Below are positions 29,701-33,938 of a stretch of 64,000 bases of DNA, piece by piece (the stretch's first letter is position 1; each line of letters begins with the position of its first letter). Source of the DNA: Saccostrea cucullata (Eukaryota); the NCBI RefSeq assembly GCF_032062105.1, contig NW_026926947.1, positions 186,001 through 250,000 of the forward strand, written 5' to 3'. The notes under the pieces were generated by a model that was given only the letters and a program-made list of their open reading frames with translations, had not been told where the DNA came from and did not search any database. The position numbers and the translations under genes are program-made.

Positions 29701-30005
29701 CCTTACAAATTCGTAATATCTTATCGATTTCATGAGTAATTTATTATTGACAAGGCGATAACAAAATTTAAAATTATTATCGGGAATCTATTTTTCAAAT
29801 GAAATTAAATTTACTTGGGTCCTTTTTCTCATGGAGAAAGAGAATGACACGAAAACTAGGCGAATGCCCTCGTTACCAAGTGACGCCTAAGTACTTCGCA
29901 CGTGAGATCTGACAAACTTTCAAATAACGGAAAGGTCGGGGAGATAGGTAAAGGGCTCCAGTGTCCTGGTTATGGATTATTTGAACTGTGTGTCATATAT
30001 ACACT

Positions 30006-30171
30006 TAAGGAATCACTGTCTAGTTTTGAGAGTATGCCAGGGCATCAACAATAGTGGGAAACATGGGATAATTTGCATAACGGGCGAAGCCCGTTATGCT
30101 AAAATTATCCCATGTTTCCCACTATTGTTGATGTCCCTGGCATACTCTCAAAACTAGACAGTGATTCCTTA
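30006..30171. repeat. Long near-perfect palindrome (about 80-bp arms, 3-nt GAA loop)
   Basis: Left arm 30006-30085 (TAAGGAATCACTGTCTAG...ATAACGGGC), loop GAA 30086-30088, right arm 30089-30171. Only about 3 unpaired extra bases. Confidence 0.95.
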
Positions 30172-30600
30172 TATTTCCATTTCATTGTAAAATAAAATTT
30201 TAGACTTATACCCCATTCATACGACGAAAATTTGCTTATGTGTGCAAATTTACATATGAGTAAATATACACACGTAAGTAAAAGTTAATTTGCGATGCGT
30301 TCAGAAGAGATTTATGTTCTGTAAGTAAATCTTTATATTTTCATATAAAATAAGGAGATCCACAGATTCAGAATTGTTGATTTGTATAGAAAAAATGTTA
30401 TCTTTTACTATTTGGGTATAAAATTAACTTTTGAATGTTCCCCAGAGAAATAAAGGGGGGATCCAATCTATTTATTTTTTGATGCGGAAGAAAAACAAAC
30501 TTAATAACTTCTAGAAAAAATGTACACATGAAAAAGGAAAATTAATTAAAATCATTGTTTAAATTTTGAAAACGCCTCGGTCCTAAAGTCTATAGAAGAG

Positions 30601-31460
30601 CCATTGGGTGTTAAGAAAAAGATGGTTGTTGCCATCTACTGAATGGCGTCTTCAGCAGAAAAAAGTACGACTGGAAATCTTTTTTTGTGTTTGGAAATCT
30701 ACAGTACCTCAAGTTTGCGAGGTCATTATGCAATATCTGCTTGAATATTATATGTATTTTCCAGGAGAATGACATGGGCAATCAATTTTTAAAAAAATTT
30801 AAACGAAACAAATTATATGAATAGGAAATACTGTTAACGTATTACATTTGGCTGTGTATTCTTTTTAGCGGCTTTGGCGTAACTCAACAACCGCTAAATC
30901 AAGTACACCGCTTTATGTCTTGCACATATACACAAAAATAAGAAGAAAAGCGCTTAATCAAATCAACACTAACTTATTCAAAATTGAATTACCGTCAAAT
31001 ATCGTACACGCTATTGAAATACAATACATTTACAGTAAACACGACTCCCCTAGAAATTCATGGTGGGACATGTGGCCAAGGATCGAGAATGCTCAAAAAT
31101 GCTTATTTTCAACAGGGTTGTTGAAATTCCTGAAGCATCAATTTATATTTCAGTAGTTTGCCTTGGTTTAAAAACAAAGAAAGGTAGAAGAAAGTCAAAC
31201 TGTAATGGGGCCCGGGCGATTGACGTAATGCCTATTCCTATCACAGCCCCGGAGCATTCCCATGAAGACTACTTGAATTGTAAGGGGACTACTTATTAAT
31301 CCTGCAGCTAGGGCACATGTTTGCCGGACCACAGTTATATCTTTTTTAATTTAGAGGTAAAAACATAGGTTTGCCAAATTTAAATTTATATCAGAGGACA
31401 CTGGAGATGCAGTGTGGATTCTTGTTTTCAGAGTAAGTTGAAAAAGCCATTTGTGGAAAG
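30601..31460 (+). pseudogene. Harbinger (HARBI1/DDE_Tnp_4-type) transposase remnant
   Basis: PLGVKKKMVVAIY*MASSAEKSTTGNLF, then a frameshift to ..KSTVPQVCEV (HTH region, 30601-30745). ARAIDVMPIPITAPEHSHEDYLNCKG (about 31209-31290) matches the GAIDGxHIPIxAP...DYxNRKG motif. Contains stops, frameshifts and a MITE insertion. Confidence 0.8.
30831..31035. mobile_element. Tc1/mariner-type MITE inside the Harbinger transposase remnant
   Basis: Ends CTGTTAACGTATT / AATACATTTACAG with TA on both sides. Confidence 0.7.
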
Positions 31461-33938
31461 AACTATGCTAAAACAACCCGGCGTACCTTTAAAACAGTAC
31501 CCTTATCAAAACTCAAATTACTTTCAGCTGTTGTTGAAGTACGGCATAGATGACAATAAAAAATCCAGTTTTTTATGTTTTGCTGTCTAGCCGCCATGCT
31601 AACAGACTGATATTATACACAAAACAATGCATTAACAACCGAAACAACACTTAAAATGGAGATTTATGCAATAAACAAAACAAAATACATACATTAGTAT
31701 ATTTGCTGCGAGTTCATATGACAAAATTTACACACATGAACTATAAATTTGCGACAACATGTATGCAAAAGTTAATTTGCACCTAGTCCTGACCAGGTGT
31801 AAATTTACTCAACTGTGCAGAATTTACATGTGAGCAAATCAGTTCATACGACAAAAATTGCACATGTGAGTAAATTTACATATGAGTAAAATATACTGAT
31901 GTATGCAAATCATGTCGTATGAATGGGGTATTAGACATTAAAAATGTAGACTAATAGATTTAAATTACACGAGGACTTCTATGCCAATTTCAATAGTTCG
32001 ATCTCGCACACTGGCGTCAAACACAAAGGTAGCTGCACGAGATTTTCATGCATATTTGGTCTTCTTAGCGTCAGACACAGAGGCAGATGCGCACGAGATT
32101 TGCATGCATATTAGGCCTCCTTAGCTGATGACCTATCGACCTGCCTAATTTACATTCCGGCAGAATTATAAAGAAATAAATTCCCCCAACTTTCAAACAG
32201 TTATCACAGAGGAAAAAATTAGAAATGGAAATATTTAGAGAAAATTGCAGTCTGGGTCACTTCACCTCGCTTCATCTGATTCCATTGACAGGGGACCGGT
32301 ATTTATGATAGAATTCTCATCTCTGATTATCATGAGGCTTTCAAGGTTTATTTATATTAGATAGAATAATCATGAAATGGTGAGATGAGAAACTTTACCA
32401 ATATTTTGATATTGTGAGGAAAAATGGTGCGAGTTTTTCTTACTTTGAGAATATTGTAAAATTTACTATACATGCATGTGTTTCAAAACTGAAATATTTA
32501 CATGTATATAAGGCCATTGCTTGATCGCCTTACTTGAATATGAAAAGTATAACTTCCGGAGGTATATCAAATTTAGCTCAAATTATTCACTTGGTAAAGA
32601 GGACAATTGACCCATTCACCTCCCAATTCCCAATACAAATAGGCATATACATGTACAGTGATGTTTCAGGAGGGAAATGTTCTGAAATTTAGGGTGGGGT
32701 ATATTTGAGGACTAGAAGTACGATGCAGAATTCTAATGTATAAAATTCTGCAAATATAACAATTAAACGATGTAAACAAGGAATAAATTAAACAAGAAAT
32801 TCAATCTTATGTCTGGATTTGACTAGAAATTATGTCATATGTAGGCTGGACAAAAATGAGTGCATTAGCATTTTAACCAAAAGGGTTTATACGTTTTGAA
32901 TACCTCAAGATAAATGCGTTGCAGTCGACCTGTGTGTCATACTGTTGAATGACATAATCGGAAATCTTTTAAAACATCACCACAATGTGCAAAAAGGTTT
33001 ATTAACCGTAGATACAATGGATCTGAAATCGTGAGAAGAAAATGACCGTAGGACCTACTCATCCAAATTTGAATTGACCCACTGAAACACAAATTTGCTC
33101 AGGTGAGGGGGAAAACAAAAGATGTATGTAAAGTAAATTAGGGATGACCGGAGAATTTACTCAACTTCATGGCTAGGTCTGACCCAGTGATACATATAAT
33201 ATACGCAAAATAAACATGATAGGTAAAGGAAAAAATATATAAAAGACGGCTGAGAGGAATATATATAGAAAGTTTTTAAGGTTATTGACAGTTACTGTGT
33301 CTATTTGACGTTAATGTTTACACTGAGAGGAAAACGACTCAAAATTCGACCCTGCTTTACCTGCGCGGCTTTCTGTATTAAAGCACCTGTGTACACCTTT
33401 ATAAGCCCAGTCAGTCTGATAGCACAGGCAGGAAGAACTCTGGTGTGTGGAATAAGCCCACTATTCTAAAAATATTGATTCAAGGTATCAGCCTTGACGC
33501 GCAACACCTTCAGTGCATCGGTAAAGAAGAAGTTGAGTGAACTGTTTTTTTTAATTTATTTCTTACATAAGTTATTTTCTACCAACACCAGGTATTATAA
33601 GCACCCACACAGCAGCCTGGGGAGTCATTGATGCCTCGAGACGCTGGGCATACAGTGTGTTCATGATTTTATGGAGTAGAGCCAGATTTGCAGCTGTATG
33701 AATTAATATCGGAAATCGTCTAATGGAGTAAAAAAGTCAGCAATTATCGAACACTCTGTCACCAATTATCTGTTGGCTTTACTCACTTTTTTTTTTTTTA
33801 AATTTGGAGTTGATATAAATACGTTAAACGGTTTACAAACGATGTAGATGTTCTTTGTGACTTAGAATTGTGGCATATACCTGGGACTTGAGTTTACAAC
33901 ATTAACTTTGTATAGTAGATCAGCGGGACTATTTCCTA

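What the first reader, a model, noticed from the sequence alone, without database searches (positions are those of the whole stretch)
30006..32233. Hairpin-headed element whose internal sequence is complementary to its own circle junction (tyrosine-recombinase-type architecture)
Seen: an 80-bp-arm palindrome with a GAA loop starts at 30006 (TAAGGAATCACT...). Its right arm continues ...AGTGATTCCTTA-TATTTCCATTTC (to 30183), but the matching extension is missing to the left of 30006. It appears instead 2 kb away as GAAATGGAAATA(T) (32222-32234). Joining 32233 to 30006 gives GAAATGGAAATA|TAAGGAATCACT, the exact reverse complement of the internal stretch, so the hairpin is complete only in a circularised molecule. 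There is no TSD. Removing the nested Harbinger leaves an element of about 0.5 kb with a 2-copy about 55-bp repeat (32015-32125). Known: DIRS elements have an internal region complementary to both termini, and DIRS/Crypton elements integrate from circles via tyrosine recombinases. Inference: a non-autonomous element mobilised through a circular intermediate, possibly of a poorly described family; the autonomous partner is not in this window.
Basis: partly seen in the sequence, partly recalled or inferred. Interest (0 to 1): 0.75.

Follow-up and report, generated by a model that had tools for sequence, protein, structure and literature searches.

The report
Oyster Crypton with self-splinting ends
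This is a short, high-copy jumping element that shares both ends with a recombinase-coding Crypton transposon in the same genome, and one of its strands is predicted to fold so that its two ends meet on an internal splint, which would give a testable mechanism for a transposon class whose way of moving has not been demonstrated.

Summary
The feature is real. It is a copy of a ~500-bp non-autonomous element with thousands of candidate matches in this genome, interrupted by a TTA-flanked transposon. Its partner, absent from the window, is a 2.75-kb element with the same two ends and an intact tyrosine recombinase (DUF3504): a Crypton, not a DIRS or Helitron. One correction: empty sites show the element owns one more T at each end (30005-32234, no TSD), so the end-to-end junction is 2 nt longer than the internal complement, not exact. 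The layout is general here: 27 of 31 Crypton lineages carry a terminal hairpin on the clade-typical side, the far end matches the hairpin-adjacent bases family by family, and the 2-nt excess recurs in 10 of 10 families folded. Stable GNA/GNNA loops lie on one strand (19 of 27). Best reading (0.55): a folded single strand juxtaposes the ends, and integration uses one strand exchange plus replication, as integron cassettes do. No circle was observed. Eight literature searches found no description of this layout; Repbase/Dfam could not be checked. This scan noted the same layout earlier in other genomes.

The parts
30005..32234 (-). Non-autonomous Crypton copy (about 0.5 kb without the nested insert); strand given relative to the partner's recombinase gene
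   Evidence: shared ends, empty sites; partner L125/L126
30006..30085 (+). Outer arm of the terminal hairpin; 30005 is the unpaired terminal T of the element
30086..30088 (+). GAA loop within a GCGAAGC mini-hairpin, a stable loop on the + strand only
   Evidence: PMC13037366 passages
30089..30171 (+). Inner arm of the hairpin with unpaired bases at 30100-30101 and 30134 (all unpaired positions unchanged in 29 of 45 distinct hairpin copies)
30171..30183 (+). Internal complement of the far end (putative splint)
30209..31930 (.). Nested, separate TIR element with a TWA duplication (TTA at 30206-30208 and 31931-31933); PIF/Harbinger-like by TSD only
   Evidence: 2067 candidates; TWA duplication in 4 of 5 other copies; far end not found in the fifth; no Pfam hit in 4 ORF pieces
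32014..32125 (+). Two copies of a 56-bp repeat in the body; not shared with the autonomous partner; role unknown
32222..32234 (+). Far end of the element, complementary to 30171-30183; its last three bases TAT resemble the preferred target TAY

Best explanation
The stretch is a non-autonomous Crypton copy that shares both ends with a 2.75-kb tyrosine-recombinase element of the same genome, and it likely moves through a folded single strand in which the hairpin arm plus the adjacent 13 bases act as a splint that brings the two ends together. Shown: family, ends, no TSD, partner gene, family-specific complementarity, 2-nt excess at the junction, loop polarity, target preference. Inferred: (1) the strand with the hairpin at its 5' end (+ strand here) folds when single-stranded, probably during replication; (2) the partner's recombinase joins the juxtaposed ends into a circle whose junction carries two extrahelical bases; (3) integration into A/T-rich TAY^W targets uses a single strand exchange resolved by replication, as shown for integron attC sites, which gives a fixed crossover point, no TSD and copy gain. 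Which strand is exchanged at integration is unresolved.
For: Partner: L125 and L126, 99.3% identical over 2748 bp with unrelated flanks, match the short element at 97.8% over the 178-nt hairpin end and 88% over the 34-nt far end, with nothing significant between; DUF3504 and Phage_integrase above cut-off; R, HxxR, H and Y motifs intact (motif assignment from recalled YR chemistry). Far-end 16-mer versus hairpin-adjacent sequence: mean longest exact match 11.7 nt within family (19 families) against 4.75 nt across families (342 pairs; 7 reach 10 or more); 15 of the 19 far ends are fixed independently by 2 or more copies with unrelated flanks. Junction strand 2 nt longer than its partner in 10 of 10 families folded in silico. 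Real head-to-tail junctions in the genome show the same 2-nt excess: 3 in this family (L173, L174, L176) and 1 in family I (L089). C-GNA-G or C-GNNA-G at the hairpin centre on the hairpin-5' strand in 20 of 27 lineages by pattern (19 at the loop tip on inspection) against 1 of 27 on the other strand, although the hairpin lies 5' of the gene in one clade (14 of 16 lineages) and 3' in the others (13 of 15). Only GNA loops form the extra-stable DNA mini-hairpin (PMC13037366, passages). One product class: 49 of 53 far ends keep the element's 8 terminal bases and 1 of 52 left flanks equals the element's last 6 bases. One-strand exchange with replicative resolution is established for attC (PMC3458562, abstract).
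Against: No circle or single strand was observed; nothing biochemical was tested. The 3-base target similarity (TAY versus TAT) lies 3' of the crossover on the strand opposite to the one with the stable loops, so by the recalled homology rule for tyrosine recombinases the exchanged strand would not be the best-folding strand. The hairpin is only modestly better conserved than the body in copies picked by the body (4.85% versus 7.15% mismatch), and uncompensated changes (70 distinct) far outnumber compensated ones (8) among 45 hairpin copies. The partner's own internal complement has one mismatch in 12 to its far end. 3 of 31 lineages showed no hairpin and 1 a doubtful one. Left boundaries of families B and X rest on one copy each, those of K, W, Y and V on two. 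Folding energies of the two strands are nearly equal in the model, so strand choice rests on the loop literature. Head-to-tail junctions can arise by insertion next to an existing end and do not prove circles.
Confidence: 0.55

Rival explanations
1. Classical Crypton model: excision and integration of a double-stranded circle by two strand exchanges; the hairpin and internal complement are accessory (extra recombinase-binding site, cruciform, or origin for copying the circle).
For: This is the published proposal (PMC3212892 and PMC13565253, passages). The target homology fits exchange on the strand opposite the stable loops. Mini-hairpins occur at priming sites of single-stranded replicons (PMC13037366), so the loop could serve copying rather than recombination.
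Against: Gives no reason for a constant 2-nt excess (10 of 10 families) or one-strand loop bias. Two exchanges across a non-matching overlap should leave two reciprocal product classes; one class is seen.
Confidence: 0.28
2. The hairpin is resolved into covalently closed hairpin ends (protelomerase or rolling-hairpin style) and the element is amplified as a linear or dimeric intermediate before integration.
For: Long near-perfect terminal palindrome with conserved asymmetries; protelomerases are YR-fold enzymes (recalled); multi-base compensated changes in both arms of older copies (L174, L177) suggest arm-to-arm copying.
Against: Persistent bulges lie on the same arm in most copies (29 of 45 with all unpaired positions unchanged), with no sign of flip-flop isomers as a second major class; only one end has a hairpin; does not explain the far-end complement.
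Confidence: 0.07
3. DIRS-like cycle: an RNA is reverse transcribed by an enzyme supplied in trans, and the internal complementary region templates the missing ends.
Against: No RT in the partner; a 255-nt GT-AG intron is kept in 6 of 6 partner copies; ends copied from the internal region would lose the 2 extra bases and the mismatch; hairpin side flips relative to the gene between clades.
Confidence: 0.05
4. A Helitron2/Helentron non-autonomous element (asymmetric TIRs plus 3' hairpin) moved by a RepHel protein.
For: Read on the minus strand the layout is terminal repeat, subterminal repeat, hairpin, with no TSD; Helentron-type elements are reported for this genome (unchecked note).
Against: The long element with the same ends encodes a YR, not RepHel; in that orientation the element begins and ends with A and the subterminal repeat is 167 bp from the end, against 5' T and 20-30 bp for Helitron2 (PMC3627910, passages).
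Confidence: 0.03

Closest known systems
Animal Crypton DNA transposons, DUF3504/CryptonA group, and their non-autonomous derivatives (Kojima and Jurka 2011, PMC3212892)
   Same: Recombinase-only coding element with DUF3504 and a weak QRICH1-domain match; abundant short derivatives sharing both ends; no TSD.
   Different: That paper found no terminal repeats in animal Cryptons, and a 2026 paper (PMC13465315) lists only 4-6-bp direct repeats or no description. Here there is a long terminal hairpin, a 10-14-nt internal complement of the far end, a 2-nt junction excess and a strand-biased loop; the only direct repeat is a degenerate trinucleotide.
DIRS1 retrotransposons with an internal complementary region (PMC7192593)
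   Same: Internal sequence complementary to both joined termini; YR integration; trinucleotide similarity between junction and target.
   Different: No RT, RNase H, gag or long inverted repeats; intron retained; complement not exact.
Integron attC sites (PMC3458562; CTX-phage attP recalled)
   Same: Works like: YR, folded single strand with extrahelical bases, strand bias, predicted one-strand exchange with replicative resolution.
   Different: Eukaryotic; the fold would be completed by joining the two ends of the element; no IntI; loose target; nothing tested biochemically.
Helitron2 / Helentron (PMC3627910)
   Same: Asymmetric terminal inverted repeats next to a terminal hairpin; no TSD; gene may lie in either orientation.
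   Different: YR instead of RepHel; hairpin of about 166 nt reaching the terminus; opposite end and target polarity.

Membership tests
Crypton (animal, DUF3504 group) | Autonomous form encodes a tyrosine recombinase with R-H-R-Y residues | tested here: met
   L125/L126 exon 2: DUF3504 48.1 bits, Phage_integrase 30.8 bits; motifs intact; PDB profile hits are integrase/Xer proteins
Crypton (animal, DUF3504 group) | No reverse transcriptase or DDE transposase | tested here: met
   All frames of 70 aa or more listed; the 550-aa spliced product has only DUF3504, Phage_integrase and QRICH1 matches
Crypton (animal, DUF3504 group) | No target-site duplication | tested here: met
   49 copies and 4 empty-site comparisons
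Crypton (animal, DUF3504 group) | Non-autonomous copy shares both termini with the coding element | tested here: met
   178 nt at 97.8% and 34 nt at 88%
Crypton (fungal/oomycete definition) | 4-6-bp direct repeats at both termini (not found in animal Cryptons by Kojima and Jurka) | tested here: not met
   Only a degenerate trinucleotide: target TAY versus element TAT
CryptonA versus CryptonV/H subgroup | Phylogenetic placement with named reference elements | not testable with these tools
   No Repbase/Dfam references held; the tree holds only elements of this genome
Crypton | Extrachromosomal circular intermediate | not testable with these tools
DIRS1 | RT/RNase H and gag | tested here: not met
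DIRS1 | Long inverted terminal repeats plus an ICR exactly complementary to both extremities | tested here: not met
   No long terminal repeats; junction 2 nt longer than the complement
Helitron2/Helentron | 5' T, 3' ATIR 20-30 bp from the end, 5' hairpin | tested here: not met
   Begins with A in that orientation; repeat 167 bp from the end; no stable fold at the far end (definition)
Helitron2/Helentron | RepHel-coding element with the same ends | not tested
   No RepHel search was run; the partner found encodes a YR
attC-type single-strand YR substrate | Folded strand with conserved extrahelical bases near the crossover and strand bias | tested here: inconclusive
   Predicted fold, 2-nt excess and loop bias; strand of exchange conflicts with loop bias
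attC-type single-strand YR substrate | One strand exchanged, junction resolved by replication | not testable with these tools
   Only indirect: a single product class

The most novel reading that the evidence does not exclude
Animal Cryptons as a group are single-strand tyrosine-recombinase transposons: a terminal hairpin plus an internal splint folds one strand into a recombination site with two extrahelical bases at the junction of the element's ends, the eukaryotic counterpart of integron attC recombination and possibly the DNA ancestor of the DIRS internal complementary region.
Probability: 0.4. Interest if true: 0.88.

Novelty: new variant of a known kind. Interest (0 to 1): 0.66.

Why it matters
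Crypton transposition has not been shown experimentally (PMC13565253) and animal Cryptons were reported to have no terminal repeats (PMC3212892). This family supplies a young, intact, two-exon recombinase element, a 0.5-kb minimal substrate with exact ends, and structure-specific predictions (splint, 2-nt excess, strand, target) that can be mutated one by one. The layout also gives a sequence-independent rule for recognising non-autonomous Cryptons, which resemble Helentrons or fold-back elements and are easily misfiled.

Tried and rejected
Fold-back MITE rearranged locally: rejected, 49 copies share the layout. TT or T target duplication: rejected (TT fits 21 of 49; empty site of L018 not TT). 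Exact junction complement: rejected. Search for the empty site of the window copy itself: the left flank is single-copy. Pattern search for junction-like motifs gave 6 hits; 3 (L172, L175, L177) are single copies with small insertions in the internal motif and were dropped, 3 are head-to-tail. First automated complement search picked far ends by the complement itself and is circular; it was replaced by multi-copy boundaries, where several first seeds had the wrong strand and were redone. Metagenome scan: 45 of 80 loci (L213-L257) were weak integrase-like matches and were dropped; most of the other 35 are too short to hold both ends. RNA reads on exon 2: 142 and 159 reads in two oligo-dT runs, low depth, both mate directions, many from an internally deleted derivative; not taken as proof that the recombinase is expressed. 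The structure prediction had not finished and was not collected; no fold search was run. The careful tree did not finish; the quick tree was used. Kojima's 2019 review was not held.

Full report
Observation. The hairpin (arms 30006-30085 and 30089-30171, GAA loop, unpaired bases at 30100-30101 and 30134), the 12-nt extension and its complement at 32222-32233 are as described. Searches of the 1.17-Gb own genome with the two halves gave 2104 and 3084 first-look candidates, of which 40 were scored each time. In the 60 loci fetched, the halves are joined into an element of about 500 bp. The insert 30209-31930 is a separate repeat (2067 candidates) with a TWA duplication in the window and in 4 of 5 other copies; it is Harbinger-like by that duplication only, as 4 ORF pieces gave no Pfam match.

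True ends. The element therefore runs 30005-32234, with no TSD. Target bases left of the insertion are T at -3 (38 of 52), A at -2 (44), and T, C or A at -1 (33, 12, 7); the first base to the right is T or A (36 and 15 of 53). Joining the true ends gives a junction two bases longer than the internal complement; folded in silico it pairs on both sides with those two T unpaired.

Partner. A DUF3504 search gave 151 matches among 150 scored of 500 candidates; I fetched 80 stretches around them. L125 and L126 hold a 2.75-kb element, 99.3% identical between unrelated flanks, that shares the hairpin end (178 nt, 97.8%) and far end (34 nt, 88%) with the short element and nothing significant between. 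Six copies at 96-100% were found, two of which share a flank and one of which is interrupted. The gene has two exons and a 255-nt GT-AG intron, present in 6 of 6. Exon 2 matches DUF3504 and Phage_integrase above cut-off; the catalytic motifs (assignment recalled) are intact. A 550-aa protein that matches copy L132 at 100% is labelled by NCBI as an uncharacterised protein of Saccostrea cucullata, and named relatives are from bivalves and one gastropod. RNA reads cover exon 2 thinly and do not establish expression.

Generality in this genome. Of 31 recombinase lineages in a quick tree, 28 have a hairpin of 80-260 nt within 2.8 kb, one of them doubtful; the 64-kb window has only two other, weaker ones. 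The hairpin lies 5' of the gene in 14 of 16 lineages of one clade (SH-aLRT 99) and 3' in 13 of the other 15. Read with the hairpin at the 5' end, the last 16 bases of the far end match the hairpin-adjacent sequence over a mean of 11.7 nt within family (19 families; 2 of the 21 listed had no coordinates and were skipped) and 4.75 nt across families (342 pairs); 15 of the 19 far ends are fixed by two or more copies with unrelated flanks, 4 are not. The two lowest scores (6) come from single mismatches, one of them in our partner. In 10 of 10 families folded, the junction strand is 2 nt longer than its partner; boundaries are well supported for A, I, U and T, by two copies for K, W, Y and V, by one left end for B and X. 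Four genomic head-to-tail junctions show the same excess. A C-GNA-G or C-GNNA-G motif sits at the centre on the hairpin-5' strand in 20 of 27 lineages (19 at the loop tip) and on the other strand in 1; five of the rest have CTTG or TTT loops.

Outside this genome. A metagenome scan returned 80 loci, 35 of them clear relatives. Six (four families) carry a 3' hairpin starting like ours and one more is ambiguous; in two (L190, L194, one family) the far end is present and complementary; most contigs are too short to tell. Their hosts are not identified.

Mechanism. The layout is what a single strand needs to bring its two ends together on one continuous partner strand. Loop polarity that ignores gene orientation points to single-stranded DNA rather than RNA; only GNA loops form the extra-stable DNA mini-hairpin (PMC13037366, passages). 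A fixed crossover with one product class (49 of 53 far ends intact, 1 of 52 left flanks element-like) fits one strand exchange resolved by replication, as shown for attC (PMC3458562, abstract). Against a simple version: the three-base target similarity lies 3' of the crossover on the other strand, which by the recalled homology rule is the strand that would be exchanged. A combined model, folding for circle formation and integration from a filled-in circle by one exchange, reconciles both but is inference. Hairpin conservation is unremarkable at copy level. I give the folded-strand model 0.55 and the classical double-stranded circle 0.28; that the element is a Crypton derivative moved by this recombinase I put above 0.9.

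Literature. Seen as passages: PMC3212892 (no terminal repeats found in animal Cryptons), PMC13465315, PMC5753468, PMC3627910, PMC7192593, PMC13037366, PMC13565253 (mechanism not demonstrated), PMC8969392. Abstract and outline only: PMC3458562. Eight full-text searches, read as listings, showed no description of this layout for Cryptons. Repbase, Dfam, Goodwin 2003 and Kojima's 2019 review were not available, and supplements were not opened (Additional file 1 of PMC3212892 lists element termini), so curators may have noted the palindromes. Earlier notes of this scan report the same layout in other genomes; my reading was recorded before I saw them, and they are not independent support.

Verdict. 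Real, high-copy, a Crypton derivative with an intact partner; a terminal architecture not found in the papers searched; mechanism inferred and directly testable. Interest 0.66.

Noticed in passing
window 13633-14838: 156-bp satellite array (7.7 copies); copy L035 of the Crypton derivative is inserted into a unit of the same satellite elsewhere, which supplied empty sites.
   Followed up: partly
window 18154-19722: Three short arrays of 165-167-bp units, resembling the Helentron-borne oyster satellites (recalled resemblance).
   Followed up: no
L126 4461 onward: RNA reads (25 and 29) and one contig join exon-1 sequence to the middle of exon 2: an internally deleted derivative of the partner appears in RNA libraries more than the full element.
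   Followed up: no
L095 1217-1326 and 3754-3885; L106 6682-7386; L124 4856-5159: Hairpin elements inserted into other Cryptons, in some cases at or near the internal complement, whose sequence resembles the target.
   Followed up: no
L113 6749-6896, L119/L120 about 7300-7500, L122 5596-5777, L127 1653-1824: Further hairpin-ended elements near coding Cryptons, probably other non-autonomous families; L120 shows the far-end complement at 1.18 kb.
   Followed up: partly
L145, L149: Pairs of near-identical Cryptons in inverted orientation a few kb apart (families I and U).
   Followed up: no
L107/L108 about 5000-5115: Family I has a second 90-nt hairpin near its far end.
   Followed up: no
window 30580-30760: Decayed coding remnant in the nested insert that resembles a Harbinger transposase segment by eye (recalled); no Pfam match.
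   Followed up: partly
L019 170-733: Older, about 80% identical relative of the short element with its own nested insertion.
   Followed up: no
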